Below, in pieces: positions 2,851 to 51,232 of a stretch of 64,000 nt of DNA. The notes under the pieces were generated by a model, which saw nothing but the letters and a program-made list of their open reading frames with translations, had not been told where the DNA came from and ran no database searches. A program made the position numbers and the translations under genes. The stretch is from Stylophora pistillata (Eukaryota), in the NCBI RefSeq assembly GCF_002571385.2, contig NW_019218252.1:167244-231243 (forward strand). Reading direction: 5' to 3'. Numbering within the stretch: the first letter of the stretch is position 1; each line of letters starts with the position of its first letter.

Positions 2851-5093
<2,243 letters not shown>

Positions 5094-8000: not shown

Positions 8001-8262
8001 TTGTGGTGCGCATGCCAACCAGGAAGCGCGTTTTTTTGCGAGTAACCAACTCCGTTTTAGGTTTAAATCTGATTGGTTGAGAGGTTGAAAGGGGGATTCT
8101 AGACCAATCAGCAAGCGAGGTAAAGCAAGCTTACGATATTCCAGATTATTTTTTTCACTGAATTAAACAGCATTGTGAACAAAGGATTCCTCTCTGTTCG
8201 CGCACATTTTTTTTGCACCATGATTGGCTAGCTGTTTAAACAAATAACAGCCGCGCCTTGTG

Positions 8263-17200: not shown

Positions 17201-20200
17201 CTGCAATGCCATCGAGTGAGTGACACCCTTCAAGGATGCGCCATTAACTGACACAAGTTTATCGCCAGTTTGAAGTTGTCCATCTTGAGCACACACCATA
17301 CCAGACTGTAGTCTGCGAATCTGTAAAAAGGTCAAAACACCTTAAATACCGATCAGTTAATTCACGGGGGATACACTCATCTGACTGGGAGGTTAGCTAT
17401 TTTCGGGATACTCTTCGCACTCGATTCCTTTCAACCACTACATTTTTATAGCTTCAAAAACTCGAATTCGAAGCTAATAGCTAATAAAATCATGCCCATT
17501 TGGTGCTTTTTTTAAGTCATGGACACACTTTTTTTATGGGGCAGGATCCACGGAGAAAAGCGATTCTACTAAAGGCTTAAAACATCAATTAAGCTGCTGA
17601 GTTTTTCTGATTGAACATGGGCAGTGAGAGTAAGAAGCATAATAAGTGCCACCTGTCTTCCCAATTCAAACTGAATCATGTACACTGATTCCAGTTCCAT
17701 TGCTATTACCTGGAAGTATCCCTTAAGGTTCCCATAGCTTGGGACCAAAGAAAGACCAAGCGTGGAGTTAGCTCCCTTCTTAATGCTTATTTCCATTTTC
17801 CTGTAGCCAAATGGAATCATCAAATTGTCCCCCAATTCGTCCTTAACTTTCTCCGAATTCTTATTTGTTGAGTGTTTGTCTGTGCTTATGACATCTGTGA
17901 CTGGTTTAATCTGTTCTTTAAATCGTGATTTTGATGCACTTCGCAATTCTTCTTCATTCTTTGTGCTCCTCTCTTGTTCGTCAGTGTTCCGTGGAACTAT
18001 AATTCCATTATGGTCTTTTTTCTCTGCAACATATTCTGTACGTGGAGCATCACTTTCTTTTTTTTTTTTGACACACTCGGAGGATGGCACCTCATCTGTT
18101 TTGTCAGATGACAGGAACCTCTCTTCCTGTGTACCAGGTTTTACCTTTCCCCTAAGACTCGACCTTCGCTTACTCCCCGGAGGTTTGGGAAGGGGCGTAG
18201 GGTGTTGTGGGACAGATTTCTTTGCTGGCTCAGTTTTCTTGTTTGCTCTTTGAGTAGAGTCCAATCCCTGGGAAGTCAACTTAGACCTTCTAATTTTTTT
18301 TTGCGTTGAACTTGGCAGATCTCTGAAGATCTTGATCACATCTTCTTGGTCCATTCCTCTGAGGTGGGTGCCATTGACTGCGATAATTTGATCTCCTGGT
18401 TAAAAAGAAATTTTTTTTTTCAGAAAACTCGTTTACTTATGCTCGAAATGTCATCTTTAGGTACTTTTTACATTTTTTTAATGAGATCATCAAATCAGTA
18501 GATAAAATCAAATTACTTCTAAAATCTGTTTCGGATTATCGTACATGTCTTCATCTAAAAGTTAAGTTGGACACATCCATTAAAGTTCACCTTAATCTGT
18601 GTTCAAGTCCTCTATACAAGGGACACATCCTACCGAAAGTAGTAGCCTTTTTTTTTTAATTTTACATACCAAAGAATCTTCACTTATCGTAACAGCCACA
18701 GAATTTCATGCTGGGAAGTTGAATGAAGATAGTTCTCTAAGTGTGTTATGGAAGTCATTAATAAAAATTTTTTTCTCACCGAGTTTTAGCCCCACTCCCC
18801 TTGGACTTCTTGCCAAAGCAGCAGATCCTCCTTCAGTTATACTTTTAACTGACACACCCTCAGCTATGGTGTTCCCACGAGACTTGTCGACTGTGACACC
18901 CATTCCCAGTCCAACTACCAAGAAAAAAAACGCAGCGGTGAGCTTTTTTTTTAATCCGCGGAGTTTTCGATGAGGCTTTCTATTTAAAAGTCTATCTTAT
19001 GGTTTTTTTTACCGGATGGTTGCTTTATAATTGTGTAGATGTCTTCCAGAAATTCGGCAGAATTTTTTTTAGTAAAGAATAAGCAAAACATGGTCAGAAA
19101 AAAGTTCTTATACTCAACAATTAAAAAATTAATCCTTTACAACTGGTCTTACGACCTATGTGGTTGGCAGTAGTTTTGTTTTTTTCGATCACACTTGGCA
19201 CTCAAATTGAGTATCCCTTCTTTCTCTTTTTTGACCTTTTTTTTCACATGCTGCTAGTCTTATCACAAAAAGATATCAACCTCAAATGTGACATCTTTGT
19301 TTCAACACGTCGTTGCCTCAGTCGTTTCCTTTTTTGAGATGAATACTTCAGGTTTCTTCAAAATAGGTCTTACCAGGTTCATAAGTGAAAACATCATCAT
19401 CTGACTCTTGAACTTTTTTTTACTAAAAGAAAAATGAAACAGAAGTATTAAACTGAAAAGCTATGTTTCAATAATAAATTTTCACATTCATTTCAGGCTT
19501 TGTATTGTTATGTATTGTGAATTATTTCTGTCCCTGAAAACTAAAAAGTCACTCGTAAGACAAACTTCATAATGACCAATTAGGGACAACTTTTTTTTCT
19601 AGACCAATTAGGGACAACTGATCATCATATTTACCTTCTTTTTCTTTTTTTTTTTTTTGGAGAGTGGAATGAGGAGATCACAAGAAGAAGAAAGACTTGT
19701 CAAATTGTCTTTTTTTTATTAAAAAAAGAAAAAGGAAATTAAGGCCTGCGGATAACCTTGACATGACATTTTTTTGCACGGCGATCAGTTACAGATGTTT
19801 TCATCCACAAAGAGTACCATCTTCTGATTTTTTTCCCCTGCATATTTGTGAGTAGTGGCAAGACTCCAACAGTTACTCAAAAGTGTAGTACCTTGGATAA
19901 CCTTTAAAAGTAGACATTCTACAGAGGTTAGATCGCAGTATTTTGTTTTTTTTAGTCCTTCAGGCAATTTGCTTGTTTACCCTTTGAGTTCTCACTGGCT
20001 CTTTTTTTTTTTTCTTTCTTTTTGAGTTGTGATTGGCTTGGTTTTACTTTATTGACACTCAGATTTTTTTCAGGCTATTGTACATTTGGAGCTAACAGTT
20101 GATCAAGGCTTATTAAATTGCCTTTTTTTCCATCATCTACCTTTAAACCTCTACACTCTATCAGGGCTCAACATTAACTTTTTTTTTTACTAGTTAAATG

Positions 20201-23200
20201 GCTAATAGTGCGACAACTTAGATGTTACAACAATTTCAATTTTTTTTCTGGTCAAAGTAGCTGGTGGAAATAAAAAACCACTAGTTAAAACTGAATTTCT
20301 TTTTTTCTGTGGCTAGTTGGCTACTGGTAGTGTCAAACCCTGCTCTATTATAAGTATGTTTTTTTTATTCTTTATACTGTTCTCTTTGCATGTTTTAATG
20401 TCCTGACAGGGTAAACATGTTTTACAGTAAAGAGCTGCTTAATAGTTGATGATCATTTCCTATATTCTCCTGACCTTTTTTTTTGATTCAGGGGTGACAT
20501 TGTCAGGAGAAATTAGATGCTAGTCACTCTTGGCATTTTTTTGTTAAAACCACTCACCACAAGACTCAGAGCTTTCTGATGCACCAGAGAGTGTTGATGC
20601 AGTTCCCGAATTCTTTGATTTCCCTGACATCTTTTTATCCAGTAATTGACGCTCACTTTGAAGCTTAGTGAGTTCATCATTAAGTTGTAGGGGTAACTTG
20701 TCAGATGCATTGTTTTTTTCAACTTTAATATATACTTTTCCTGGAGGAGTTTTATCTAGAATGTTGTAGATGTTTTCAACTGACAGTCCTTCCAGTTTCT
20801 TGTCATTAATTTCAAGGAGTTGATCACCTTTTTTTTTAATAAAACAAAACAAAACAAAACAAAAAAGAAGAAAAATTGAGAAAACCTTTTTTTTTTGAGC
20901 ATCAAAATTTATTGCATGTCAACATCGTAAGGATATTGTTAATGAAGGTTTTTTTTTACTCTTTTCTCCGCAGTTTAGCTTGCCATAGGCAAAAAACAGT
21001 AACCAGCAAAGGTGAACATTTATTTCATTTCAAGACAAGTATTTAATAATTTTGTTTGATTAAAGTAGCTGGCACTTTACATAAAAAGTAGCTTGTGAAA
21101 ATACCAGCCAGTTTGCCTTCTGGAGTTTTTTTTGGTTATGATAAACAGCAAAATCAAATTTGAAAATGAAAGTGCTGTGTCTGTTTTTTTTCTGTGGCTG
21201 AATAAATGAGTAGGAAGGTTTTACACGTCAGTAAGTTCAAAATTTTTTTTATGCTGTTAAACTGTTTGCATGGTAAGATCCCAAAAACCTAGAAAAAAAA
21301 AATTTTTTTAAAGGAATCTGATGGTTTATGTAACCATTCACTTTCATTGAAGTGTTTGCTTTTTTTTTCTTTCAATCCTATTCTTTACTTTCATCACTTG
21401 TCTGCTTGATGTTGTAAGGAGAAATTCTTTCTTGGTCATTCATGGGAGTTAAAGGGCTTAAGATGACGTTAAGTGTAAGATGTTGAAAATGAAAGGCTGA
21501 CAGCAAATTTTGTTGTCTATTTATGTTGTGCTTTTGTCAGTGGAGGGTGCAATAAAAAAATATAATTCACCTTAATCTCCCATCATTGTCTGCTGGTGTT
21601 CCTTGAATAACACACTGAACAAAGATTCCAGGTAGCTGATTTGATGGATGTTGCTCTCCTAGACCAATTCCTAAGCTGCTCCCAGGTTCTAAAAGCATGA
21701 ACAAATTAATTTTTTTTTTTTTGAGCAAGACCCTAGATAATTTTTTCACAAGCCTTTAAACAACTATATGAACCTTTTTTTATGGGCAATAAACAAGTTA
21801 CATGTATTGGCCACTGGTTCAAAGTAGTATGGCTACTGTTTGGCTGATAATATTAGGGTGAAACAAGTTTACTTCAAGAATCAAAAATAGAACACAGGGA
21901 AATCTCTTCAAAAACTGAATAAAAAATAGCTCAGACCATCACAATTTACCCTTTTTTTCTCTAGTCCTGGTTGCCTAATGATAACACTCTTTCTGTCACA
22001 TTCTGGTGATTTTTTTTATTGAAAGTACTTTCTGAGCTTACATTTAACCCTTAACAGGGCTCGATACTAACTCTTCAACTTACTAGCCAAGTGGCAAGTG
22101 ACATCTTAGATGTTACGACAATTTCAATTTTTTTTCTAGCCAAACTGACAAGTGGAAATCAAAAACCACCAGCCAAAACTGAATTACTGCTGGTCTGTGG
22201 CTAGTGGGCTACCATTAGCATTGAACCCTGCTTAAACTCCCAAGATTTTTTTTTTAATTCTCCGCTCTGACTGCTATACATTTCCTTGTAAAGTAGTCAC
22301 AAGAATTTGGTGTCAGATCAAGATTTATAACAACTTCTACCTGATAAGTTTGAGCACTCTCATTACTTGTTTGGTGGATGATGTATTGATTTTATGGGGA
22401 GAATTTACATGTTAGTCACTTATTTTTTTTTAATGGTTAACTCAGTCATTATATACATTAGACAATGCCTTGACCTTGTTCTTTTTTTTTTTTATTACAA
22501 TAAACTGAGAAAAAAAATTCTATAAATTACCCCTTTGAAGGTTTTTTTTTCCTTCTGAATTATTTCTTTAACAAGAAATATATGAACTAATCATTAGTGC
22601 AAGATTTGAGACAGGGACATAAACGTTTGTTCTTTCATAACTATTTATAATATTTTGATGCAGAAAACCATCCATGCCTTACCTATATAATTACTCATTT
22701 AACTCTTGACACTGATTATTTTGACTAAAATCCTTTAGAGAAATTATCAAACATGAAATCAAACTTAAAAGTGCTTATTTTTTTGACTAGTTCTTAATTT
22801 TTTTTTTTTTAAAAAATCATCATTAATTAAAGGTCTTTTTTTTTGCTCCTGTTGAAAGTGTTGGTGAAATAAAATACAATAACAAATATTTTATGTTTTT
22901 TTAACTAATCTCCTGAAAAATTTTAAATTTACTAGAACTAAAGGATATGCAAACTTTTTTTCAAATTCAAAACAAACCTTTATAAAGAACTATTTCATTG
23001 ATTTTCTCTTTCTTTTTTTTTTTCGGACGCAGCTTTCGAAACATTATTGGAGAAGACGAATTGCTGGAGCTGGTTGAGTCCGCTGTCACACCTCTGCTGT
23101 TCCGACGCAAACTTCCTGGTGAATTTCTGGGTGTTGTAAATGTTGATAAACTTGGAGCTCCAGGACTGTTTCTGTGCACTTTCAAAGTTACAATTCCTCT

Positions 23201-26200
23201 GCGAAGATTCTACAACCCAAGGATAGTATTTACTACAGCAAAGAATATTGTATAAGTTTCACCTGGTGAGTAAACTTCAGCAATGGATAGCACAATAGAT
23301 TGATAAGCTTTTTTTAGGAACTACTTTATTCTCCTACAATTTGATTATGAACTGCCGACTGAAAGTCAAAATAAAGGTGCAAAAAAATGTATATTTTGCC
23401 ATAAATTCTCAACAATTAAGATTTTGAACTGCGACCCTGTATGAATTGATAAAGTTTTCCTCTGTTTTCAATCTGTGTCAGCAATAATACTCTTTTGTTT
23501 ACTTTGATAAATCACTTGATCAATAACCTGGGGCAGGTGAATGTTGTACTTGTTTAATATTTAATCATAAATAGAAGTGATTGAAAGCCCACAGCCAGAA
23601 AGATTTTTTTTGTAGTTGAATATAAAGAAAATGTGATTTGTCAAATATTTTAGCAGTGCTCAAAACCCCAGATCTCCACAATTACTTTGTTAAAGTTTCT
23701 ATTTTAATTAGAGAGGCAGTTTCACACATTACCCATTATAGCAATGTTTTCAATTAAGCCATGGAGAATTTGTTTTTTCCCCCAGGAACAAACAAATGAC
23801 TTCATTTTGTTGACATTGGGAACAATAGCCAGCAATTTTTTTTTTTATTTATCCCCAAACACAAGAAAAAGAATATCAAATCAAATTCATCATTTCATCA
23901 GTAAGTGATTATCATAATAATCTGAGTTTCTCTGACATGTAAATAGGGTTGACTTGGTTTTTTTAATCAACATCAAGTTTTTGGATTCTCCACTTCTTTC
24001 CATCAACGTTTTAAGTTTTTTTTTTCTTAGAGAAAAAATAACCTCTTTCAATACTTATTCTTGACTAGCCAGAAAAAATTGCCAAAAATGGCTTTTGTTA
24101 ATAGTTTGGATGACTAATTAAGCAAATGATAAACTTAAACTAAAATTTCAGTAATTGAAAAATTTGATTAAAACTAAGTTAAATTCATTTGGATTTTTTT
24201 AACTCAATAAAGTCTTCTTCAGAAACTCATAAAAATGTTTGAAAGTTAAAGATTTTTTTATAACATTTGTGGATAACAAAAACAAAACTCTTAAGACAGT
24301 ATTTTGTTTATTGAATGTTAAGAAAGAATTCTCCAAATTTTCCCAAAGTCAGATGAATCATCTCTCTTTAACAGAACCATCCAATTCAAACTTTTAGATC
24401 AATGATTAACCTGAACACATAAAAAAAATTTTTTTTACAATTCTTTGTGAGATTCATGAACATGACAGTGAGAACTGCCTGCACTACTTACCTTTTGCTG
24501 TTGCTATTAATAATTACTAGATATAGAAAACAATTAATGATTATTTTTTTTTTATACAATTTATTAAGATCAATATAAAATCTGTCTGACTTATATTTTG
24601 AGTATTCACTCAACTCAAGCTGAAAGCAGTCACAATGAAACATACCAATCAATATATTCAAAAAATGAGTTTATGAATAGCCCATTTCCAAATTACCCTT
24701 GGCCTCTTTTTCAAAACGAGGCCTGGTGCTTAACCATTCTTGTAAAAATGAGTTTAATTTGCATGTGAATGGAAACTTCTAATTTTTTTAATGGATGAGC
24801 ACCAGGACTCGTTTTGAAAATGATGCCAAGGGTAATTCGGATTTTTTTTATTTGAATGCAATTTCCTAAGGGATTCCACTACTACGAACTATATATCAAT
24901 TTTTTTTATTGTTTATGAAACCTTTTTCATATGTGTAGCTCTAAAAAAGTTACCTAACATTTTTTTCTTGTAAATATGTTGATATCGCAAGGAGAAAAAT
25001 TCCATTTTGGTTGCTACTTTTTTTTAAAAAAATTCACCTCTTTTCACCTTCAAAAGTTCTCAACTCTGACCATTATTCATCCTTTACCTTAAAGGTGTCC
25101 AAGGCTTTCTGATGAGTGAAACCTTCAAAAGATGTTCCATTCACTGATAATACCTCATCACCTACAATTTGATTGCAAAGAACAAAGAAGATGAATTTGG
25201 AGGGCAGACTAGTGTAAACAAATTTAGAAATTTAACATTAAATCGACCTTCACATTTTTTTTGGCAAGAATTAAAAAAATTACTTTAACATCTAATATCC
25301 TTCATTTGCACTTTTTTTTTAAATAACAAGTAACCTTTTCTCATTCTTCCATCTGCTTCTGCTGCTCCACCATTTTTTTTATTCCCTATGTATACAGGCA
25401 TGTCGCCCTGAGGTGAGCCTTTTCCTCCAACAATAGTAAACCCGAGACCTTTTCCACTCATTCCCTTTACCAGAACAATGGTAACAATTTCCTCTTCCAT
25501 TGCTTTACTGATTCTTCTTTGTGTGCTGTCGTTGCTTCCCTTTCTCTTTTTTTTTTGCGAGTCCCGTTCATTACTCCCCACAAGATTTTGGGGTGTTGGC
25601 AAAGCTTTAGTCATTATGTTGGCGGGGGGATCCCCCAGATATCGTGCAGAAAAAGCGATTCCCATACCTCCTGGAGACTGAGGTCTTGGCAGGGAAGGTG
25701 AGATTTGACCAGGTTCTAGACTCATTTCACTTTTTGTAGGTTTCTCTTTAGGGGGTGAATTATTCAAGAAAAGGTTTGGTGAGTTTCTCTTCTTTGAAGC
25801 ATCTATAATTGGTGGGGATGGGGATGGTAGCTTTCCTGGTGAAGATTTTTTGGAAGACCCTTTGGAAAGTGGTTTATCCTCCAAAGTAACAGGTTCACTT
25901 TCTAAACTTTCTTCTCCTTTTGAAAGTAAGACATCTTTTGTGTTTGACTTTCCTAGTTCATTGGAACCATCAGATGAGGAGGAGCAGCTTCTGCCATTAG
26001 TCAACTTTTGTTCATTTCCATTTTTTTTGACATAATTTCCTTCATGATGTGACTTATCTTGCGAGTCTGTTGCATCAATTTGATTAATATTCTTTCCTGA
26101 ATTCAATTCTTCAGCTCTTTGCAAAAGATCATTTTCCATTGATTGTTGTAAAAGATTCTCAAATGACTTTGTGGTCCCTTTTCCAAAATTTTTATCAGCT

Positions 26201-29200
26201 GCTTTGTTCTCCTTTTCAATATGATCAGAGGACATTTTTCTACCTTTCTTCATCAAACTCTCTGCAGACTGCGCTCGAGGAAGGGTTTTTGAAATCTGTG
26301 TTCCAGTTCTTCCTGCTTTTTTTTCCAAAGACCTTTTTTTAAACCTTGATGCTGTCACCTTTTCCAACACAGACTGGCTTACCTTTGTGAAAAAAATAAA
26401 ACAAATAAAACTTCCATACTTGTGATTAAGATTTTTTTTTTTTAGATTGTAGTATAAAGTACTGACAGCAAAATACTTAATAATATAGAGTCTATCTGCC
26501 AAGGAATTATTCATGAGAAAACTGTTTGTTACCTGTGTTGAAATGACCAGTTGTATAAGCCTTGGTGATGCTCTAAGTAAGTCAACTGCCTCCTGTTGTG
26601 TGACGCCTATCAAGCTGTGGCCATTGATCCATAACAGCTCATCACCCTCCTTAAGGCGACCATCCCTAAATTTTTTTAAAGAAAACAAAATTTCAATTTA
26701 AAGTTAATTTGTTATAAGTAATAGTTATTGAAAGTTACCGATAAACATTTACTTGGATATATGTAGGTAAAATGAAATTCCAGTTTTCTCCCTTTAAGAA
26801 TTGTTAGTAATTAATAATGTGGGTGGAAATACTGGTATAAAAAACATGCAAACTTAACTAGTTACAAATATTTTTGACCCAAATTCATTTTAAGCTGGAA
26901 GATAATGCATATATCAAAAAGTGCATTTAGATTCATAGTATAGCAATAATATATAGTTTTAACAGTTTGTATGACCCAAATGCATCCCAGGCAGCTATAA
27001 TTCATTTAATAAATTTAATCCAAATTTTTTTCTTAACATCTATTTCAATCTACTGTTCAACTAAAATTATATTAATTTTTTTACTAAAAGAATCAATGCA
27101 TAAATTACAAATAATGGAAGGTTTATTCTTTAGGGTTAAATCTTTTTTTATCAGCATGGTTAGTAATTTTATCTTAAAACAGGATATTGGGTTATTTGCG
27201 CTTTTTTTTATTTTTGTAGAAAAAGCGCAAAATAAGTATTAAATATCATTATTATTATAATTTTTTTTCAATATTGAATTTGTTTTTAGATATTGAGTTT
27301 TGTGTCTTGGCTGTCATTGATTTTTTATGTCACAGTCACAATTTGAAATAATTTGCACCTGTAGAATTCCATCACTGTTACTTTATCTATACTGACTGTG
27401 TAACACTGATTTTCTAATATGCACAAAAAGTCTTGAATTTAAACTTGAACCAAGACAAGGTCAGGATTGTATACTTAGGAATTAACTCTTTGAATAATGA
27501 ATCTATTTGTAAGTAGTTGCTGCAACCAAATTTAAAAATCTGTATTCCTGTGAATGTATCATACCTTGTGAGTCTTTCTTCAATGTTTTACACAACAAGC
27601 TCAAATTGTGGTACTTAATTTTGATATTACAATGTCAATTGAAGGTTTCTCATGAAAAAAAATTATGATTTTTTTTTTTTTGATGTAGTAGTAACAGAAA
27701 CTCTACCTCTTCAGTTTCACATGTCATTATTGATTGTGAATTATTAAAAAAGCTGTATATGGTTCATTGAGTGAAAGAATATATTTGAACATTTGACCTG
27801 GCATAACTGTAAAACAATGCTGTTACATTAATCAATACATGTGAAATACCGCACCTTGCAGCAGCCCCACCAGGGCTCACATCAGACACAAACACACCCT
27901 TCTCTCCTGTTTCATGGTTGAGTTTCATTGATATTTGTACTCCAAGTCCACGGCTATCCTTTAAAATATGTATCTTCTTCACTCTGTTTTTCTGTGATGA
28001 AATATCAGGTGGACAATTCTCAAAATATGCAAAGCATCAAAACAATATATTTAATTACATGAAAATAAAATTTTAAAGTTCATTGTTTTTATTATTTCCT
28101 ATCATTTTCTAACATGACACTATAGTCAATAAAAAATAGTTTTAAGTCTGTTGACGTATCTAATTTTCATTAATTTTATTAAGGTCATTTAATATCTTTG
28201 TACACAGTGTAGGCCATACCTTAGGTAGCAAGACATGTCTGTTTTTACATCATAAATTATGCATTTTTTTAACTTATTCATGAAAGGATTTCCTATCATT
28301 TACTACGGTGCTGTTGCATCTGTTATTGCTTAGAATTTCATTTATTTTCCCACATAAGCACCAGTTACAAACTGAGTGTATTGATAAGTTACAATGAGTA
28401 AAAGTTGAATTCTGTGAATATAGTAGGGCTACACTTGGTCTCCAATATGCACGTCCACAACTGATCAGCCAATCTTCAAATTTTCTTTATATAAAATACT
28501 AAGACCATATTTACAAAATATTTCTCCCCAAAGAGACATTAGTCTGTTGCAAGTTCCATTAGTTCCAGCATTCAGTCACGATAAGTAATAACATAGGCTG
28601 GGATACTTATTACTAACAGTACATGTTTGAAGCTAGCCCTTTTTCAGTAAATGCACGGTTTGAAAACAGGAGTAAAAGTTGATGGTGTAGTCTGCTCACC
28701 CATGAGATTAGACTAGAGATCAAAGGGCTCCACTACTGTAGGTAATGAGGTCAAAATATCAGTCACTGTTGCCCACAACAGTCCTTCTACGGACTTCTCA
28801 ACGGGGATGACCAGACTACTTGTTCAATAAGTTATCACTTCTGTCAGATTTACAGTTGGGAAACTTATGAAATTGCAAGAACATATCACAAACATCTGAT
28901 TAAAATAATTAAAATTCTCTACTAGAAATGGCCTATAACATTTTCATCAATCTGTCAATTACAGGTGATAAATGGTTATTTATTTTAACACTATATCTGC
29001 AAAAGAATGTGAAATTTTTTAGAGTAAAAATTTTTTTATTTTAATCCTGTTAAAATTGACTTTTGCATTTCAAAGTGCAATCTTAGATATTTTTTTTTTT
29101 TAACCAAACCATGACAATAATGGAAAGAAAATACTCTTCTACCCTACTTTTTTTTGGGCCAGACGTGTAAAAGTCAAATTAAAAATTTGTTTGATTAAAC

Positions 29201-30505
29201 TTACAGATTTTTTTTTCTCAGAAGTGTTTTCATGTCTTGGAATAACACCATTCTTCACAGGTGTGATGTTGCTCCCACCAGGACCACGGAGAACTTTTAT
29301 TTTTAATTTTCCACTCCTCAAGGCACTCCCTAAGTACCATCTAAAACAAATCACTCCAATTAATATTAATTCGCGTTTACACATTAAATATCAGTTCATC
29401 TCAAAACCAAGACGTTATAAAATATTGTTTGTGAATAGCAAATGAAATACGTAACAATTGAGATTAAAAAATATATAATTTAATTCTGGCAATACTATTT
29501 CGGCGAGTTCTCTTCTGAAAATAAGTGTTTCATGCTAGAATTTGGATAGAAATTTGATATTATTAATTAATCGCCCTCTTTGTAGTCTAATTCTTATCAG
29601 GCGTCGAACGCAAATATTAATGCTGAGACAAGAATGTCGAGTACAAAAAACCTCACACAGCTGTGCATGCACAGGTAGCGATATTAAACGTAAACAAAAG
29701 GTCACACACAATGTGAGCCAATACAACTCAAATAAATGGCGCTAAAACGATCCCTATTTCAAAACAACAGACAAACATCCTCTACACCACCAGTGGTACA
29801 AATCTTCCAGCGTTTAAGTTCAATGAATAAATGATTTAGTGCCGAACAGTTCACAAGATTGCACTCAGATATAGCGTTAAGGTCCTAAATCGTTCGTTTC
29901 AGATTATAATAGTACACTCAAGGGAGAAATGGTTGTAGATGATACAACAGTTTTGTAAAGAAGCTTGACTATGATTTTTTTAATTCATTTATTCTTCGCC
30001 ATACAAAAATAGTACCTGTTGCGGTTTTTTAATAAACTTTGATGAAGCCTACGAGTTTTACCTTGCTCGCTCCAGGCTTGCTTTGGATAAATCGCGGCCA
30101 TTTATTTCCATTACTCTATCTCCAACTTCCAACAATCCATCCCGTTTTGCTTTTTTTTCCGGCAATAAATCGGCGATTCGAATATTTCCCAAGGCACTTC
30201 TTGCACAGCTTGGGCTGCTAGGATCTTTGTTTTCGAGCACGACTCCAAAATCTCCTGAGCACTCATCAAATTCGAACGATTTAGTGTCGCCTTCTCCATC
30301 CACGTCTCCGTTTCGAAGCGTATCTTCGGCCGCGGAAACCTTCTTTGATCGCGGAGAAAAAGCATCTGAAGAAGAAATCTTACCTTCTTTTTTTGTATTC
30401 AGTGTTAAACCACTAGTAAAATGGTCCTTGATGTTTTTCTGTAGTAGACATTCCTCCAATTTTTCCCGTCTTCGCAACCGAATCACAATAGGTTTGAGCT
30501 CGTTT
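8263..30505 (-). CDS. Giant multi-PDZ scaffold (~10 PDZ domains), PDZD2/pro-IL16-like. Approximate exons 30062-~30505, 29205-29340, 27855-27991, 26533-26666, 25334-26382, 25088-25161, ~22992-23210, 21571-~21690, 20558-20828, ~19374-19422, ~18780-18920, 17710-18397, 16023-17320, 10852-15727, 9712-~10475, 8263-8976.
   Basis: Repeated PDZ motifs (GLGFTIVGG, GLGLSVTGG, DGRLKEGDELLWING, GDKLVSVNG). The C-terminal PDZ (LEKGASGLGFSLGGGQDSLYGDAPI...LPYGPVVMKIRRK) closely resembles the IL16/PDZD2 C-terminal PDZ. Long Pro/Ser/acidic linkers. 5' end and small exons uncertain. Confidence 0.8.
24676..24852. mobile_element. Palindromic MITE (~177 bp)
   Basis: Left arm aatagcccatttccaaattacccttggc...ttttcaaaacgaggcctggtgct mirrors right arm agcaccaggactcgttttgaaaa...gccaagggtaattcgga[T7]tatt. 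Confidence 0.75.
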
Positions 30506-31344
30506 TTTTTTTATCTAGGTCACTAAACTTTTCATCTTTAAAATTCACACCAGAAATTCTCTGATTTTTTTCATGCTTTAAGGCGAAATGTTTTCTTTCC
30601 AACCGTAAGGATTCAACGTTTCTTTTTTTTTCCTTTGTTTCTGTTTGTACTGTCTTTTCTAAGTTAAATACAGTTGAATTACTTTTTTTTGACGTCATGC
30701 CCACGTACCACTCATCCCTTATGAAAATGTCTTTCTGTTTATATTGGCATGTTTCAGTTTTCTGTTTAAAGGATACAACATTATTCTTCCAAGCAATCCG
30801 AGCTTTCAACCTTTGGAAATTATCACTCTACAGCAGATATCGCAAAATGAAACATTCCTTTTTTTTTTGATCGAACTCATGCAAAAATGCGAACCCTACG
30901 GGGGCAGGGAAGAATATGGACCCCTTGAGGAGGGTCTGTGTCGTCTGGGTCAAGTCTGGCCTCTCGTGAGATACACGTTTTTTTAGATCACGTTTGACCT
31001 TTCAAAGTAATTTTCAAGTACCTTTTTTTCGTAAAATTTTTTTTTACAAATTGAAAAGGAGCCCGATTACATCCTTCACAGCCGTTTCCAATCTCTTTTT
31101 TTGTCGCACTCTCTCTGCGTGGAAACAAAACAAAAGCGGTGGTAGCAAGAAAAGAAAAAACGCGCGAGTGAGCGAACTAATGACCTCTGTCTTTCCCTCG
31201 CGCGTGCTTCACTTTTTTTTAGTCAAGTGCCGACTACTCCTGGTAAAGGAACTACGACGGTACCTTGAGACCTTTTTTTATATGTTTTTGCCAACACCTT
31301 AGGGCACAAACATTTCTGGTACGCTAAACAACACAACCCTGACC

Positions 31345-31731
31345 TAAGGCCCTGTTTACAAGCAAGGAGGGTAACCCTTGTGCTAGAGTTTTTTTTTCAG
31401 GAGGGTCAAAGATAGCCCGGGTTTACAAGCAAAATTTCACAGGCAGGGTTACCCTACCACCCGGGACAACGTACCTATTTATGGTAACCGCACGCATTGT
31501 TATCAATGTTTTTTTGGTCTGGAAACAAGTAAAAAGTTGTCCAGGGTAGGCGAGTTATCCCCAGCAGTTTTTTTACAAGGCAGCTAGGGTAACCCTAGTG
31601 CTAGGGTAACCCTAGCTGCCTTGTAATTTTTTTGATGAAAAAAAGAAGAAATGTGGGAGCGTTAGGGTAACCCTCCTGCCAGGGTTTTTTTTGCACTAGG
31701 GTTACCCTACCTGCTTGTAAACAGGGCCTAA
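31345..31731. mobile_element. MITE with 17-bp TIRs and TAA flanks (PIF/Harbinger-like), with internal GGGTAACCC palindromic subrepeats
   Basis: taa|ggccctgtttacaagca ... tgcttgtaaacagggcc|taa, plus many gggtaaccc/gggttaccc units. Confidence 0.8.
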
Positions 31732-32604
31732 GACGTCAGCGAATTTTTTTTGAAGTCCAAGTGCAGTATTGACTAAGTAACCTAAACGAACTGACCAATG
31801 AAGAGCGCAAGTTCAAATACAGTGGTAGTGCGCTGGTGTGGGGTATCACAAGATAATTTGGTTTTTTTTACTGAGTTCATCATGTGAATTTGCCATCATT
31901 TCGTCAGAGCGAAATTACGAAGGGCTCACGCTTGAAATGTCGGCTTTAGAGACCCTTTACGGCGTCCAATTCAAATTATCTTTTTTTAACTGCAAATTTA
32001 AGACTAAATCGAACCCACCTGTAACGCTGGTGAACTGCTTTTTTTTGATTAAGGATATTGGCGGATAAACCAATTACGCTAGGGAGCTGACCAAGGGAGT
32101 TAGTGAACTGACATGAAACGTCAGTAAACAGACTTGCGACTTTGGCGAACTAGCCCATTTTTTTGGCGAACTGACCCCAAACTAAACAGAAATGGAAGCG
32201 AACTATAAGCGAAACTGTCAGAAAACTGGATACATGTAGAGTCGGTGTAAAGGATAGTAAGTTGTCTTCGGATACAGGCGAGAAAAAAAGTGGTCCCGAA
32301 AACAAGAGGAAGTGTGCATAAAACTTGGACTGATAACTAATCAAGAATAGAGAACTCGGCAGAGGCTTCGTTGTTTCGGTAAAAGGACTTTTACACTTTC
32401 CGTTTGCTGTCTCTCTCTTCAAAGAGTGGCTAGATCCAAGAAACAATTAAAAGCCTGTAGACTTAGGCCCTGGTGAAATCAAAACAAGATATGAAAGGAT
32501 CTCAAATCCATCTTGATGAATGATTGACTAGCCAGAAAGAAGAGACATCAAGGACACGCATTTTTCTGGTTGAAATTTTATTTTACAGCTCTCAAAACAG
32601 GGCT

Positions 32605-34948
32605 TTACTCCCTAGATTTCATCTTTTCACGTGCCATCTTCTTCTTGGACACCTTTTTAACCTCGACCTCATCCTCGCCACGAGGAACCACTTGCTCGCG
32701 TTCAGCTAGGATCATCTCTATGTGGCATGGGGAGCTCATGTAGGCTGTTTTTTTCAAGGTTAGACTAGTTTAAGTTTTACAAGCATATCACTTCCATAGC
32801 TTATCTTTTTTTTTTCCATCAGTGACCAAGACAGAATTTCTCGTTACAATATCACTACAATGTCGAGCACACAAGTGATGAAAATAATGAATGAATTAAA
32901 CGTGAATTAGGAGATTGATAGTTGTTTTTTTTCCAAATTCTCCCCCCCCAAAAAAAAACATTCTAAGAGCTGTATGGCAGACAGTAAGGAGAATTTTTAT
33001 TGAGATCTTGGGAGTGAAACAAATAGGAGCTTACTACTCCAATTTTTTTGGATACATAAATATTAGTTACTAGATGAGAGATCCATGGGTAGAAATTGTG
33101 CCTGAGATTTTGGGCAAGGCCTGAGAAATGTCAATTACTGTCATCACAAACAATCCTAAGAAGACAATCCTTAACTACAGTATCACAAAGATGCTGAAGC
33201 AATCAAACCTTTTGCTGAAGTGACATTCTGAAGACTTGAGAAATATTGCCTGCCTATACCCTCCCCATTGCTTAAATGTTTTTTTAGAAACAAAGTGACT
33301 TACGATTGATACGTCCATGGGCTCTGTAGGTTCTCCTCCTCATCTTGGGAGCAGCATTGACTTGAATGTGCTCAACCACCAACGAGTCCACATCCATTTT
33401 TTTGATACAGAAACAAACACAGAGGACAATGAGGGAAGACTGTGCAGGGCTAAATTTTTTTTATACTGGTAGAATCACTCATGTAATCATAGAGATTTAG
33501 GGTTCCAAATTTCCATCATCTGGTTGCTAAGGCAATTGAAAAGGAACTTGGCCGCCACCAGAATTCCTGGCCATTTTTTTCAAGTCCTGTTGATGTTCAT
33601 CATGTAAGCCAGTAGTCAAGAAATTAAATATTTTTTTTTTTTCTTATGTGCTTTTATATACTCAGCTGGTGATTGTTCACCAAAAGGAATGTTTTTTTCA
33701 AAGAAACAACCAACAAAACTTTGTGTTTTTCTATTTCACAGTGAGGCATCCAATAACCAAAAAACTCACTTTAAATTCAGCATTGCTCTCAGCATTTTTG
33801 AGGAGCTGATTTTTTTTCTCTGCACTTTTCTTTGGCCAGCGGCCCTGGGATCCTGGAGCATTGAAGTTTTTTTTTTGGAAATGTAAATAATGTAAGTTTA
33901 TTTTCTCAATCATTACCTCTCCCAAGATTTTTTTAGTAATTCTCCTTTAAAACTAGCATACGTTTTTTTTTTTTCTTGTAAGTTAGTTTTTTTTTGCTGA
34001 TAAGTTTTTTGATTCCCAATACCAGTTCACAAGATAAGGTAGCTATTTTTTTAGGAGAAGTTACACTCTAATCAAGTCATGAAGTGTTACGTATAGAGAA
34101 AGTCTGGTGTGCTAGGATTATATAGAGGGAAATATCAGTCTCCTTTCTATTAAGCAGTTCTACACTGAAATTTGGGACTCTATATGATAAATAGGGCAGC
34201 AGACCTGATGGGAAAGGCTCCATTTTTTTAGTCACTGCAAATTAAACACTAGCATATAGCAGATTGAGAAATAACTTCTTATTTTTTTAGTTTCCAACTA
34301 TTAATTTACAGAAGACAAAGCCAATAGAGAGGATCATGCATGACATTGGTAGCTTTGGTTGATATGTCAGTTATTACTTCTACCAATAGTATACTGATAT
34401 TTTTTTATATCAAGACACAAGTTGACTATTGATCATCAGCCAATCAATGGACAACTATGGACCAGCCGTTGTTTTTGAAAAGTGACTGGCTTTCAGCAGA
34501 TATATTGCCCACCCATCCACCAACTATCGGCTGAAACATATCAGCCGAGGCCACCCATAGTAAGCTTGGCGGCTAATTTTTTTCTTCATGGTGGCGTTAA
34601 GGTACTTGGGAGAGCATTTTAAGAATCGTGGACTTTGGAAGTTCTTCAGTAAAGCCAAGTTATTTCAAACACATCGTACACGTAAATGACAAGTTTTTTT
34701 TTATTATGGGAGACATGGTATACATATCATACCTGAGCTTTACGTCCCACGCCACCATTGAATCTTCGGAAGGGAATGATCTGCTTCTTGGCAATAACAT
34801 CCTTGAGATATCTGTTTGCCTTACGTATGTGCATACCCTTGATGGCCACAGCCGTCTCGTGTGTGTTCTTGTTTTTTTCACGGAGGTTAGAGCCTCGTGC
34901 TTTACAAGACTTGGTTGGATTCTCCGGATCTTTTTTTTAACGAGTCAT
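32605..34948 (-). CDS. RPL17: 60S ribosomal protein L17 (uL22). Exons ~34732-34948, ~33766-33872, ~33304-33401, 32605-32744. Disrupted as written by T7 tracts.
   Basis: [42 protein letters not shown]...GGVGRKAQ; [22 protein letters not shown]; [37 protein letters not shown]. Confidence 0.93.
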
Positions 34949-35336
34949 CTTGAGTGACCTTTACCTGCAAACACATCGTGCATCGACATAATGGTTTTAA
35001 GTCTATCATATTATGCAAGGAAATCAAAGGGAAATTATATACATAGCTTTTTTTTTTTCACTCGGATACCACACAGTCCTTCAGACAAAACGAAATAATC
35101 TTCGAAAAATGCTAGGAATACTTAGACATGTTTCCCAAAGTTAGCAAATAATTTATTGTGGAGTAATAGATTCACTATCAGCGCGATTTTTTTACATTTA
35201 AAGTAATACTTCATTTATGTTATTGGGCAGAAGTACGCACTGATGTTGAAACTACAAACATCGGAAGTCTACCGAAAATTGAAATTTTTTTTGGGGAGAT
35301 AATTTGAGATTTTAACAACATATTGAAGTCAATCTC

Positions 35337-35498
35337 ACCTTCGAAGAGGAAGGTTGAAAGAGGACATCTACCCAGACTTCTTTTCGATATGACTAGCTCA
35401 CTACGCAAGCGCATTCATCAATTCAAAATGGCGTCTGATTCGTATCGCTAGTTGCAAGAACTTTTTTTGGTTTCCCTGGCCCTGTCTTGTAGTTCACG
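35337..35498. promoter_or_regulatory. Compact bidirectional promoter shared by RPL17 and the NPL-FKBP gene, including the RPL17 pyrimidine-rich (5'TOP-like) first non-coding exon
   Basis: Minus strand cctttcaaccttcctcttcgaag|GTGAGA at ~35337-35362. YY1-like AAAATGGCG at ~35425-35433. FKBP ATG at 35499. Confidence 0.6.
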
Positions 35499-38400
35499 AT
35501 GTTTTGGGGTGAGTATACCATTTTTTTCCTTTTTTAGTTCCTTTTCCATATGATCAAAATCTAAAGAGTGGAAAAGCGACTCCTCCAAACTGTAATATTT
35601 GATCAGCTAGATGTAGAGTTGCGCGCGGCATCGGGTTGAATAAATTGTTTGGTTGAGTACAAACACAGTAATCGTTTAAAAAAATCCACTTTTAATTTAC
35701 AACAATTATAAATTTTATAAAGAAGCTATAAATGGTTTATATATATAAGGCATGTATAAAGCAAATGCTGCTTCAATATTGGCATTTTAGAACGGCCAGT
35801 GCGCGCTCAACCGTATTTGCACAGCTTATGGTCTTTAACACGTGGAACATATTTGTGAGCTGGAGAAAACGTGTAAAAACTGCCCAAGGTGAAACCTAGC
35901 ATACTGTATGTTAGATAAAGTTTAGTTGAGGAGATTGCTAAAGCTGTGCTCTTGGAAGAATCATTGGAGACCGGAAGGCTCTCGATTCAGTACCAGCTGT
36001 TAAACCTTCAACCCGGCCCCTTGGAGTGATTTAAATGTAGCTCCTTCTTACGAGTCCAATGTTTTATCTTGCAAAGAGGTTAGGAGAACAGACAAACTTA
36101 TCAGTTCGAAGGCTTGTCTTGAATTAACACCTAATTTACAAGGAAATGTCAGGTAGTCAATGGGGTAAATTACTTATCTGATCTAAGAATAATTTTATAT
36201 ATAATAGCTTTCATCAAAGTGCAGTTATGCAAGTTTCTTTACAACAATTGTTAGTAGCCTGTGGTACCTGGACCCTACTATGACATAGAGAACAGTTAAG
36301 GTTTTATTCCTTGGAGTGTACCATGGACCTGTCAAAAGAACAGTTTTTACTTCCATACTTATTTTGTTCTCAGGGGTCACTCTTGATTCTGGAAACCGCT
36401 ACACCCAGACAGTGGAAAAGTCATTTCATTTATCAATGGCTGCTCTGGGCTTTCAGAACTTTTCGTCAGTACCAGTCACAGTAATGGTTGAGGTAGATAA
36501 AGCTCAGTTTGTACTGTGCACATTTTTTTTTGGAAAAATTCCACAACAGCCTTTAGACTATTGTTTTACAGAAGGAGAAGAGATAACTTTCTTTACAGAA
36601 GGCCCTGGGGATGTACATCTAACAGGTTTGTTCTGTTTTCTTGTTTTTGGTCACTATCATGATGGAGTAATTAGTCATTTTTTGGAATTTCTTTATTGAA
36701 TTTTTTTCAAGGAGGAATAAACAGGCAGACATAACCATATACGAAATGTAGGCAGAAGGTTTTTTTTTTTTATTTTGCTTTTTATTTTGCTTTTTATTTT
36801 GCTTTTTATTTTGCTGGCTTTTTTTTGGATTAGAAATTCATTATACTGTGTTCTTGGTGACACTGTGTGAGTTTCCATTTTTTTTTGTCTAGAGCATGTG
36901 CTTTTATTTTCTGTCAAGGGAGCAGGGATGGTGTAGTTTTTTTAACGCTTGCCTCCAACTGCTGTGACCTGGGTTTGATTCCCCAACCTGGTGTCTTTTT
37001 TTGGTTGAGTTTTATTGTTGGTTCTCCTCCTGCTCTGAAGGTTTTTCTCTGGGTCCTCCAGCTTTCCTACCTCCAAAAACAGCATTCCAAATTCCAATTC
37101 AATCCAGAAACAGTGGACAAGAAGGGCCACCTCATGGAATGTCAATTGCTATTGATAAATTGTTATTCCCATTCTATTAGATCACAGATATTGACATGAT
37201 GTACTTGTTTTTAAAAACTCACCTGTATTTTCATTGAATTGTGGTCTCGCTGTAGCATGTTACACAAACATGAACCCAATAATAATAAGCTTTCCATTAA
37301 ATGATAATACTTCATGGATAGGTTATTTAATGGAAGAACCAAGTACTTTGGAATTTGAAGAGTCTGCAGAGGAAGGAAGCAATTCTGATTCGGCAGAGGA
37401 GGACGATGAATCATCCAGTGAGGAAGTGACTCTTGGAGACTTATTTCAAAGTGGAGATTTGATTGGTGATGGCAGTGATGATGAGGATGAAGAGAGCGGA
37501 GATGTGGACTGGGACCCGTTGAAGGATAATCCAAAGAAAAAAAAAACAAGCAAGAAAAAGAAGAAGAAAAAACAGGCTGAGAATTTTTTTTTAAACAATA
37601 TTATATCTCTAATGGATGTTGAACAAGCTGAAGTAACTATGTCAAATGATGGTACGAGTGGTGAAAATGAAGATAGTACTGGAGGGCAGAATAGCACTCA
37701 ATCTGAAAATGAACTCAGAAAGAAAGATGGAAACAAGAAAAAGAGGAAAACGAGTGAAACAGAAAATCAAACAATTGAAAATGGATTTAAATCAGCTAAA
37801 AAACTCAAGAAAAAAGCCAAGAAAACTCAATTAAATTCACCAAACAGTGATGGCAAGATAGAAAAGACAAAAACTCAGGATTTTTTTAGTGGGCAAACTT
37901 CATTAGATACTAGCTCACCTACAAAAAACATTGACACTCAAGTTAAACAAGAAACACAAATGAATAAAGAAAAGGTGACACAACCGAGTTCTGGTAAACA
38001 GAATGATCAAGCACAAGCCACACCGGTAAGTATTTCTCAGGGTTGTAGCTAAGAATTTACACTGCTGGCAGAAATTTCAGGTGAGGAGGCTCAAAGGTGG
38101 GGAATGATTGTAAGTGTGTAACCTTAGAAGTGCCCATTGTAGTTTACCAAGCAATTGCCGGCCAAAAATCTAGCCTTTTTTTACTGCTTTTTCATTCAGT
38201 GAATTTCACAGGCACAGGTGCTTAGTGACAACCCTTTTTTTTTGCCTGATATTATGGAAAATTTTTGATTAGCTGTCTTTTCATTGTAAGTAATTTTTTT
38301 AGGGTCATTGCAGGTGAAAAGAAACATGGAAGGCTGCAAACTTTTGTTTTCCTTGGTTTAGAGGTAATCATGAATAAAATTTTTTGAAAAGATGGCAGTC

Positions 38401-40442
38401 TTGTTTGGTGTTGTGTAGTCAGTGTATTATTAATGTTGGCATAGTTCCAATGATAATCATTGGCATAATCTTTTTTTAGGAATATTTTTCTGCTTGATAT
38501 GGATGACACAATAGTTTGCAAAATTAACTTTTTTTTAAATAATTACTCTGGGATCTTGTGATGTATTTTAAGCAGGCAAAGAGGAAAATTTTTTTAGGAG
38601 GAACTGTGTTTGAGGACATTACAAAAGGAACAGGACCAGTGGCCAAAAAAGGACAGATGGTAAGGATGTACATAAATAATACGCAGCAGTACTTGTATCT
38701 TATTAACCAAGCGTGAGGGCTGTACTGGGAGAATATCGGCCTGAGGTCTTGACAGTACAGACCTCACTACGTTCGGTCTGTACAAAAAAAGACCGAGGGC
38801 CGATATTCTTCCAGTACGGTCCCGAGCAAGCTTGGTTAATAAGAGATTTATTATACGACTGAAGTTCAAAGGGACACAGGTGTGGTATCATTCGGGACCA
38901 TTTGGGACAGTGTCCGGTCAAATGCTGACAGAATATTGACCGGCAATAGAGCATTTTGATTGGTTGATTTTAGTTATTGGCCCTCTGACTGCCCGAGTTG
39001 TGTAATAATATAATGTACATGCCATGATCTTCACATATTTTTATGTGATCTACTTACAAAAACAAACTGTGTCTTCATAATTGTGCTACCATAATACTGC
39101 AACTGTCAAGCATTGAACACTGAACAAAAAATGTTGTGGTCTTTGTATGGCTATCTTATTGAGACAGTTTAAGCACAATTAATGTTTGTCCATGAAGTTG
39201 CAGTAAGTCAGTTGTGATATTTCATAAACTGGAAGTGGTAAGTTGGTGATTCAAGTAAACCACAAGAGAGCACCTGAATTGATCAATAGAATATTTAACC
39301 TTTCAGCTGTGGTTTTAAAGGTGTTTGTAGATCTTCCTTCTTGTTTGTTTGTTTGTTTTTTCTTGTTTTTTGTTTCATTACAATTTTTTTTTTAATTTCT
39401 TTCAACAGGTTCATGTATATTATAAAGGAAATTTAGCAAAGAATAAAAAGCAGTTTGATGCTTGTCTGAGTGGACGTCCATTCTCATTCAGAGTTGGTGC
39501 AGGAGAGGTCATACAAGGCTGGGATCTGGGTGTCACTGGTAGGTGTTTGAACATTTATTCTGCCAAGGCAATCTTCCTTTTAATTTGAATTTGAAGCCTA
39601 GAATTTCTTTATGCCAAAAACTGATATATGTCAAAATTAATTGCGAGTCAACCAAGGTTGTTCTTTTTCACACAGGAATGCAAGTAGGTGGAAAAAGAAG
39701 ATTAATAGTGCCTCCATCACAAGGGTAGGTTATCTGTTACAGTATCCTGGAGACATCTTTGATACGCAACGAACTTAATGTAGTGCTTAATTTGATCATG
39801 TTATGTGAAAGTACCCCACACATGCTTTTTGTAACAAGTAACTACCCCAGGTGAACTTTGCAGCCATTTTATTAGTAATCAAGTTTGTCAACTAGGGCAC
39901 CTGTTGAGCTCAGTCAATGTTACAGGTGAAAATGGCAATTACTGTCACATTACACTGGGGCACGTATCACAATGCTACAGGTGAAAATGGCAATTACTGT
40001 CACATTACACTGGGGCACGTATCACAATGCTACAGGTGAAAATGGCAATTACTGTCACATTACACTGGGGCACGTATCACAATGCTACAGGTGAAAATGG
40101 CAATTACTGTCACATTACACTGGGGCACGTATCACAATGCTACAGGTGAAAATGGCAATTACTGTCACATTACACTGGGGCACGTATCACAATGCTACAG
40201 GTGAAAATGGCAATTACTGTCACATTACACTAGGGCACGTATCACAATGCTACAGGTGATATCCTCAATGTAACAGTCACTTCAAAACTTAGTGACAGCC
40301 CTGGTGCAGAGTCTCGTACAATATCTTACAGAGTTGATGTGTAAATATGATTGTCATTTGCAGATATGGTCATAAAAAGATGGGACCAATTCCACCAAAC
40401 AGTACATTGGAGTTTGAAGTTCAACTTGTGAAACTTCAGTAA
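35499..40442 (+). CDS. Nucleoplasmin-like + FKBP-type PPIase nucleolar histone chaperone (FKBP39/Fpr3-4/AtFKBP53-like). Exons 35499-35508, 36374-36625, 37322-38025, 38576-38659, 39409-39538, 39676-39724, 40364-40442.
   Basis: MFWG start; NPL core (FHLSMAAL, LCT..GKIPQQPLD, GPGDVHLTGY); acidic then Lys-rich linker; FKBP domain (VYYKG, FD, F.VGAGEVIQGWDLGV.GMQVGGKRRLIVPPSQGYG, IPPNSTLEFEVQL). Confidence 0.9.
36918..37150 (+). mobile_element. tRNA-derived SINE copy in FKBP intron
   Basis: gggagcagggatggtgtagt (A-box-like) ... gggtttgattcc (B-box-like) ... ggtttttctctgggtcctccagctttcct ... ttccaaattccaattc, typical of anthozoan SINEs. Confidence 0.65.
38699..38843. mobile_element. Short palindromic MITE
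   Basis: ttattaaccaagc...gtactgggagaatatcggcc mirrors ggccgatattcttccagtac...gcttggttaataa. Confidence 0.75.
39916..40259. repeat. 55-bp minisatellite, ~6.2 near-identical copies, in the last FKBP intron
   Basis: Unit tacaggtgaaaatggcaattactgtcacattacactggggcacgtatcacaatgc at 39921, 39976, 40031, 40086, 40141, 40196 and partial at 40251. Confidence 0.95.

Positions 40443-49150: not shown

Positions 49151-51232
<2,082 letters not shown>

What the first reader, a model, noticed from the sequence alone, without database searches (positions are those of the whole stretch)
31389..31692. Internal control 2: successive lattice sites overwrite GGGTAACCC subrepeats of a MITE
At 31686, agggt-TTTTTTT-gcactagg replaces the expected agggt-TACCCTA-gcactagg (mirror of cctagtgctagggtaaccct at ~31594). 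Further tracts lie at 31391, 31509, 31568 and 31627. The lattice keeps phase through a 387-bp insertion, which is not a multiple of 59. It was therefore imposed after the TE inserted and is younger than the repeat.
Basis: partly seen in the sequence, partly recalled or inferred. Interest (0 to 1): 0.7.

Follow-up and report, generated by a model that had tools for sequence, protein, structure and literature searches.

The report
Assembly glitch overwriting a real transposon
The runs of seven T's that cut through this small, ordinary transposon every 59 bases are missing from its other copies and from the sequencing data laid on this region, so they were most likely written in by a software step during genome assembly and are not a feature of the animal's DNA.

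Summary
T7 tracts stand at 31391, 31509, 31568, 31627 and 31686 on a 59-bp lattice that keeps phase across a 381-bp Tourist-like MITE (TAA duplication, 17-bp TIR). None of 23 other parsed copies has T7. One detail is wrong: the lost letters at 31686 are AACCCTA (22 of 23 copies), not TACCCTA. The lattice is later than the MITE, but not in a biological sense. All eight sequencing runs laid read other letters at lattice cells; over 5200-25100, 84-85% of all differences are T to A/C/G. The lattice fills one assembly contig (249 of 655 cells), starts after an N gap and changes conserved GOLPH3 codons. It recurs on other scaffolds with periods 16, 31, 54, 55, 57, 59, 60 and 61, once as T26. A second MITE copy inside a 61-bp lattice is overwritten at other places, with A7. 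Three phase slips (1, 2, 1 bases) match insertions of the same size in sequencing contigs, so the lattice likely predates a final read-based edit. Verdict: assembly artefact, of quality-control value only. The program at fault is not identified.

The parts
31348..31728 (+). Real 381-bp non-autonomous DNA transposon (Tourist-like MITE), with internal GGGTWACCC palindromic subrepeats
   Evidence: 40 candidate loci scored in G000; 98 exact matches to the 24-nt left end; alignments; both junctions are held by contigs of X13, the right one also by X2 (table 8)
31345..31347 (+). Left target-site duplication TAA
31729..31731 (+). Right target-site duplication TAA
31348..31364 (+). Left terminal inverted repeat, 17 bp perfect (35 of the first 40 bases match the other end)
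31712..31728 (-). Right terminal inverted repeat
31391..31397 (+). Artefactual T7; family has ACCCTAG in 17 of 23 copies, T7 in none
   Evidence: reads and contigs show A/C/G here
31450..31456 (+). Lattice cell that is not overwritten (TACCCTA, as in 20 of 23 copies)
31509..31515 (+). Artefactual T7; family has TTCAAAG in 21 of 23 copies
31568..31574 (+). Artefactual T7; family has AGCGTTT in 16 of 23 copies, T7 in none
   Evidence: loose ends AGCGTTT at 31567 in X2 and X13 (table 7)
31627..31633 (+). Artefactual T7; family has ACACGTC in 19 of 23 copies
31686..31692 (+). Artefactual T7; family has AACCCTA in 22 of 23 copies
362..38595 (+). Whole 59-bp T7 lattice, first to last occupied cell; 249 of 655 cells occupied; phase mod 59 steps 8, 7, 6, 4, 3
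4786..4792 (+). T7 cell inside a GOLPH3 exon; gives Phe-Leu where the human chain has Asp-Met in an otherwise identical stretch
8978..8978 (.). Phase slip of 1; sequencing contigs carry 1 extra base here (X1, X3, X15; not X13)
19122..19122 (.). Phase slip of 2; a contig in each of 4 runs carries 2 extra bases here
24391..24391 (.). Phase slip of 1; contigs of X1 and X13 carry 1 extra base here (not X3, X15)

Best explanation
The MITE is real, but the T7 tracts are absent from the sequencing data laid here and were most likely written into this contig by a faulty software step that replaced 7 letters in every block of 59. Shown: the tracts replace letters without changing length; they ignore what lies under them (MITE, exons, introns); they are bounded by assembly gaps; the block length differs from contig to contig (16 to 61) and the width is 7, once 26; reads carry other letters. 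Inferred: a routine that handled each affected contig in fixed blocks put a filler value over part of each block, and the filler was rendered as T (A where the contig was later flipped). Inferred: a later read-based correction deleted a few bases, which shifted the phase, and probably restored many cells, leaving more damage where reads map poorly (repeats such as this MITE, and contigs with little intact sequence between tracts). The program and the exact fault are not identified.
For: Family: 0 of 23 other parsed copies hold T7; the window copy differs from the column majority at 27 of 35 positions in the five cells and at 9 of 346 elsewhere. Reads, 30500-32500: 36 of the 40 rows shown (170 not shown) are T to A/C/G inside lattice cells; T>A/C/G makes 91 of 110 (X2), 101 of 121 (X13), 89 of 156 (X20) and 96 of 163 (X21) differences; single contigs of X2 and X13 run through the unique flank 30513-31213/31372 with no gaps and non-T letters at the cells; raw reads agree where they cover (30984: X20 4 of 4, X21 4 of 4). 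Reads, 5200-25100: T>A/C/G makes 481 of 564 (X1), 483 of 575 (X3), 503 of 595 (X13), 487 of 571 (X15); 32 of 40 rows shown (619 not shown) are lattice cells read the same way in all four runs. Extent: the lattice begins after a 1473-N gap that ends at window position 0 and is absent from the rest of C468 1-241000. Other scaffolds: 11 further lattices were fetched and measured, periods 16, 31, 54, 55, 57, 59, 61, each within N-bounded stretches as far as fetched; C19 has T26 in 154 of 182 cells; C56 has T7 in 1244 of 1244 cells at period 16; period 60 appears in search listings. A second MITE copy at C37:25224, inside a 61-bp lattice, has A runs at other positions and intact letters at the positions damaged here that it retains. 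GOLPH3 Asp-Met becomes Phe-Leu at cell 4786. The three phase slips in the laid stretch match insertions of 1, 2 and 1 bases in sequencing contigs; rough chance for position alone 0.0005-0.002.
Against: No contig or read spans the MITE interior with unique anchors, so the five in-element cells are read from pooled family copies, not from this locus alone (table 8). I cannot show that any laid run is the individual that was assembled. Nine of the 12 indels shown (16 in all) do not coincide with a phase slip, and the 19122 insertion is in one of several contigs laid there. The 'partly repaired' step is only partly supported: occupancy is 100% at period 16 and 85% for T26, but for T7 at periods 54-61 it ranges from 38% to 86%, not ordered by period, and these lattices were found by patterns that favour high occupancy. 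No flanking base predicts which cells are hit, so random skipping by the faulty step fits as well as repair. No paper describing this fault was found.
Confidence: 0.96

Rival explanations
1. The tracts were written after the assembly was finished, by file corruption or a deliberate spike in the deposited or locally held copy.
For: The lattice ignores all biology and is absent from reads; C8, C9, C19, C37 and C56 show no phase drift.
Against: In the window the phase slips four times, and the three slips that were laid match read insertions of the right size, so bases were removed after the lattice was written. Lattices read T on some scaffolds and A on others and stop at internal N gaps, which points to a contig-level step before or during scaffolding.
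Confidence: 0.03
2. A real process in the assembled individual replaced 7 bases with T at fixed intervals over tens of kilobases (for example a processive editing or repair activity), after the MITE inserted.
For: Phase is kept across the MITE; long reading frames are hit less often than the rest (39 of 179 cells against 210 of 476, p = 9e-8), which could look like selection; the source individual is not proven to be among the runs laid.
Against: All eight runs laid, from five samples in three studies, show other letters; the runs that share most words with the window (X1-X3) are among them. Period changes between contigs and ends at assembly gaps; at C56 7 of every 16 bases and at C19 26 of every 59 are replaced, which no working DNA would bear; a conserved GOLPH3 stretch is altered. 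Lower occupancy in exons is also what better read mapping would give.
Confidence: 0.005
3. The tracts belong to the MITE family or to an old 59-bp tandem repeat whose other bases have decayed.
For: None beyond the regular spacing.
Against: 0 of 23 other copies have T7; Tandem Repeats Finder and self-BLAST of 1-40000 find no 59-bp unit; no position outside the cells and their lattice neighbours is associated with occupancy; the lattice crosses unrelated exons on both strands.
Confidence: 0.002

Closest known systems
Tourist-like MITEs of the PIF/Harbinger superfamily (e.g. rice mPing; PMC2836001, passages read; PMC2872659, first quarter read)
   Same: Under 500 bp, terminal inverted repeats, many near-identical copies, 3-bp TAA/TTA target duplication.
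   Different: No autonomous partner with ORF1 and transposase was sought, so the superfamily rests on the duplication and structure only. This applies to the element under the tracts, not to the tracts.
CMITE group of coral MITEs (PMC2872659; abstract, introduction and part of methods read)
   Same: Small non-coding elements with TIRs in an animal genome.
   Different: CMITEs are tied to piggyBac-like elements (the piggyBac/TTAA class); this element has a 3-bp TWA duplication, not TTAA on both sides. The CMITE core was not aligned to it.
Consensus errors of genome assemblies (homopolymer errors, gap-filling and polishing errors; general knowledge, no paper read)
   Same: Present in the assembly, absent from reads, bounded by contig ends.
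   Different: Usual homopolymer errors change the length of an existing run; here fixed-width blocks are replaced at a fixed, contig-specific period whatever the sequence. No description was found in four searches.
Phased A/T tracts in real DNA (about 10-bp periodic An/Tn clusters of nematodes, kinetoplast bent DNA; recalled, no call)
   Same: Regularly spaced A or T runs.
   Different: Those follow the helical repeat, are imperfect and are in the reads; these have periods of 16 to 61, exact width and are not in the reads.

Membership tests
Tourist-like (PIF/Harbinger) MITE | Small size, usually under 500 bp, no coding capacity (PMC2872659 introduction) | tested here: met
   381 bp here; 370-420 bp in 24 parsed copies of 31 loci examined; too short to hold a transposase
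Tourist-like (PIF/Harbinger) MITE | Terminal inverted repeats | tested here: met
   17 bp perfect, 35 of 40 matching
Tourist-like (PIF/Harbinger) MITE | 3-bp target duplication, TAA or TTA (PMC2836001 passages) | tested here: met
   TAA on both sides here; of 24 parsed copies, TAA/TTA on the left in 21, on the right in 17, identical on both sides in 11; 7 of 31 loci did not parse
Tourist-like (PIF/Harbinger) MITE | Many homogeneous copies | tested here: met
   98 exact left ends, 0 for the reversed control; alignment
Tourist-like (PIF/Harbinger) MITE | Autonomous PIF/Harbinger partner (ORF1 plus transposase) sharing the TIRs | not tested
   No search for a partner was run
CMITE / piggyBac-type MITE | TTAA target duplication | tested here: not met
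   Flanks are 3-bp TAA/TTA, mostly C-TWA on the left and TWA-G/A/C on the right
CMITE / piggyBac-type MITE | Conserved 60-bp internal core | not tested
   The published core was not aligned to the element
Assembly artefact | Absent from sequencing reads or contigs of the same organism | tested here: met
   8 of 8 runs laid show other letters at lattice cells
Assembly artefact | Limits follow assembly units rather than biological units | tested here: met
   Starts after the 1473-N gap; other lattices lie within N-bounded stretches; the last occupied cell here is 3.1 kb short of the next N
Assembly artefact | Absent from reads of the very individual that was assembled | tested here: inconclusive
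   Runs X1-X3 share most words with the window and lack the tracts, but the source individual is not known
Assembly artefact | Reproduced by a named program on the same input | not testable with these tools
59-bp tandem repeat | Sequence similarity between successive units outside the T run | tested here: not met
   No such array by TRF or self-BLAST

The most novel reading that the evidence does not exclude
An unknown processive activity in the assembled individual really replaced 7-base blocks with oligo-T at fixed intervals over tens of kilobases, and none of the eight runs laid comes from tissue that carries it. Not strictly excluded only because the source individual is unproven and the MITE interior is not spanned by locus-anchored reads.
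Probability: 0.005. Interest if true: 0.95.

Novelty: not a real feature. Interest (0 to 1): 0.1.

Why it matters
It has no biological meaning, but it matters as quality control. At least 12 measured stretches of this assembly (this window included), and about a dozen more seen only in search listings, carry false T or A blocks. These change codons without shifting frames (GOLPH3 and a multi-PDZ gene in this window), so predicted proteins look whole but hold false Phe/Leu or Lys runs, and variant calls, repeat dating and primer design on these contigs will be wrong. Other scan findings of 'periodic T7' or 'phased A tracts' in this genome should be checked against the same pattern first. I found no description of this error type in four searches.

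Tried and rejected
Sign-extension or other single-base trigger for overwriting: no offset from -130 to +130 predicts occupancy apart from neighbouring cells, none in the other lattices, and unoccupied cells have ordinary composition; rejected. Period equal to an odd k-mer size: fitted 55, 57, 59, 61 and 31 but not 16, 54 and 60; rejected as a general rule. Recovering original letters across 19000-38700 from repeats elsewhere in G000: the search returned almost only this MITE. The best share of words in public runs (0.57) is near the 0.67 of 31-mers that avoid occupied cells; consistent but weak, not used as proof. The C8 hit looked like period 59 but is period 61; the first C8 count (210 of 861) ran beyond the lattice and was redone (212 of 558). 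Hits on C10, C91, C198, C364, C381, C742 and C784 look like natural short tandem repeats by eye and were not counted as lattices. Earlier scan notes: nothing for this genome or these words; one search returned only phage end arrays, unrelated. Literature: four searches for such an artefact found no paper; subscription journals and bioRxiv supplements are not covered.

Full report
Observation. They are part of a lattice that runs from 362 to 38595 of the window, with 249 of 655 cells occupied and the phase stepping 8, 7, 6, 4, 3. In 24311-38600 period 59 gives 89 of 242 cells, other periods from 50 to 65 at most 11; the lattice-free part of the window gives at best 4 of 405. Cells 31273 and 31745 are 8 periods apart, so phase is kept across the element.

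The element under the tracts. It is 381 bp (31348-31728), with TAA on both sides and a perfect 17-bp terminal inverted repeat. A search of the own genome scored 40 candidate loci, and the 24-nt left end matches exactly 98 times, the reversed control 0 times. Of 31 loci examined, 24 gave both ends; 21 have TAA/TTA on the left, 17 on the right, 11 the same on both sides. Size, TIRs, copy number and the 3-bp duplication fit Tourist-like MITEs of the PIF/Harbinger superfamily (PMC2836001, passages; PMC2872659, first quarter of the text). I did not look for an autonomous partner. Contigs of X13 hold both junctions of the element with its flanks, and X2 the right one, so the insertion is real.

Family test. 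None of 23 other parsed copies holds a T7 run. The family letters at the five cells are ACCCTAG (17 of 23), TTCAAAG (21), AGCGTTT (16), ACACGTC (19) and AACCCTA (22). The window copy differs from the column majority at 27 of 35 cell positions and at 9 of 346 other positions. The replacement is exactly 7 bases wide and changes no length.

Read test. On 30500-32500, two contig sets (X2, X13) and two raw-read runs (X20, X21) were laid. T to A/C/G makes 91 of 110, 101 of 121, 89 of 156 and 96 of 163 differences; 36 of the 40 rows shown lie in lattice cells, and 170 rows were not shown. Single contigs of X2 and X13 cross the unique flank without gaps and read non-T letters at cells 30565, 30624, 30683, 30860, 30978 and 31037. 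X20 and X21 cover the unique flank thinly and differ more from the window overall. On 5200-25100, four contig sets gave 481 of 564, 483 of 575, 503 of 595 and 487 of 571 differences as T to A/C/G; 32 of the 40 rows shown are lattice cells read alike in all four runs, and 619 rows were not shown. Limits: inside the MITE the reads are pooled from many family copies and no piece spans its interior with unique anchors, and I cannot show that a laid run is the assembled individual.

Extent in the assembly. The window starts right after a 1473-N gap of contig C468, and no lattice is seen elsewhere in C468 1-241000. A four-tract pattern at period 59 gave 3826 and 6860 matches in the genome, inflated by long runs. 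Eleven further lattices were fetched and measured: period 59 (C9; C19 with T26 in 154 of 182 cells), 61 (C8, 212 of 558; C37, 74 of 96), 57 (C29, C53, C4), 55 (C45), 54 (C32), 31 (C12) and 16 (C56, 1244 of 1244 cells). Listings show more at period 59 (C169, C695, C996, C1127) and period 60 (C70, C131, C157, C331, C539, C1378, C1405), which I did not fetch. Some read T and some A on the scaffold's + strand, and they lie within N-bounded stretches as far as fetched. One more copy of the same MITE lies inside the C37 lattice: it carries A runs 61 bases apart at other positions of the element. The damage therefore follows the contig, not the element.

Effect on genes. The lattice crosses a GOLPH3 exon on + and exons of a multi-PDZ gene on -. 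Cell 4786 turns a stretch identical to human GOLPH3 (KQNFLLF..TTHPL) from Asp-Met into Phe-Leu. Long reading frames are hit less often than the rest (39 of 179 against 210 of 476 cells). This could be read as selection, but better read mapping in exons would give the same result.

Order of events. The three phase slips inside the laid stretch (1 base between 8746 and 9209, 2 between 19070 and 19179, 1 between 24260 and 24544) each hold an insertion of that size in sequencing contigs: 8978, 19122 and 24391. The rough chance for position alone is 0.0005-0.002. The simplest reading, inferred, is that the lattice was written on a sequence that still held those bases and a later read-based edit removed them. 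This argues against corruption after the assembly was finished.

Mechanism. Best reading (0.96): a software step handled some contigs in fixed blocks and put a filler over 7 (once 26) letters of each block, rendered as T. A later correction shifted phase and probably restored many cells. Full occupancy at period 16 and 85% for T26 fit this, but occupancy at periods 54-61 spans 38-86% without order, and no flanking base predicts which cells are hit, so random skipping by the faulty step is not excluded. Periods 16, 54 and 60 rule out a simple odd k-mer rule. The program is not identified. Rivals: corruption after release (0.03), a real editing process in one individual (0.005), a family feature or decayed tandem repeat (0.002).

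Known and new. The MITE is an ordinary new member of a known kind. The tracts are not a real feature. Four searches of the held literature found no description of this error type, and earlier scan notes had nothing relevant. Interest 0.1, for quality control only.

Noticed in passing
G000:C56:446063-465951 (L077, L078): A7 on + every 16 bases in 1244 of 1244 cells over at least 19.9 kb; 44% of the positions are overwritten. The upper end lies beyond what was fetched.
   Followed up: partly
G000:C19:1083771-1094741 (L062, L063): Lattice of period 59 with 26-base A runs, 154 of 182 cells, filling one contig between two N gaps.
   Followed up: partly
G000:C37:25224-25560 (L089): Internally deleted copy of the same MITE, overwritten with A runs on a 61-bp lattice.
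   Followed up: yes
window 8263-30510, - strand: Exons of a large multi-PDZ protein gene (Pfam PDZ in four frames tested), with a 1665-codon open frame at 10825-15822; A7 cells put false Lys runs into it.
   Followed up: partly
window 4575-5093, + strand: Last part of a GOLPH3 gene (3e-69 to the human chain), damaged at cell 4786.
   Followed up: yes
window 49151-49657 (-), 49871-51232 (-), 54098-54832 (-): Outside the lattice: a histone H3 frame (named from recall of its sequence), an unbroken 453-codon frame that reads like 6-phosphofructo-2-kinase/fructose-2,6-bisphosphatase, and a linker histone H1 frame (Pfam). Pfam 6PF2K and His_Phos_1 matched the frame given as 49874-51232; I did not recheck its strand.
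   Followed up: no
window about 39930-40250: Tandem array of about six copies of a unit of about 55 bp, read by eye; outside the lattice.
   Followed up: no
L013-L015, L017-L020, L049, L051: A 420-bp subfamily of the MITE with two extra GGGTWACCC subrepeats; several copies end at N gaps or have mismatched flanks, as expected where near-identical copies break an assembly.
   Followed up: partly
window 24687-24841 and 38698-38844: Two further palindromic, MITE-like elements of about 150 bp; the first has very high depth in contigs. A high-copy repeat also lies at about 31840-31895.
   Followed up: no
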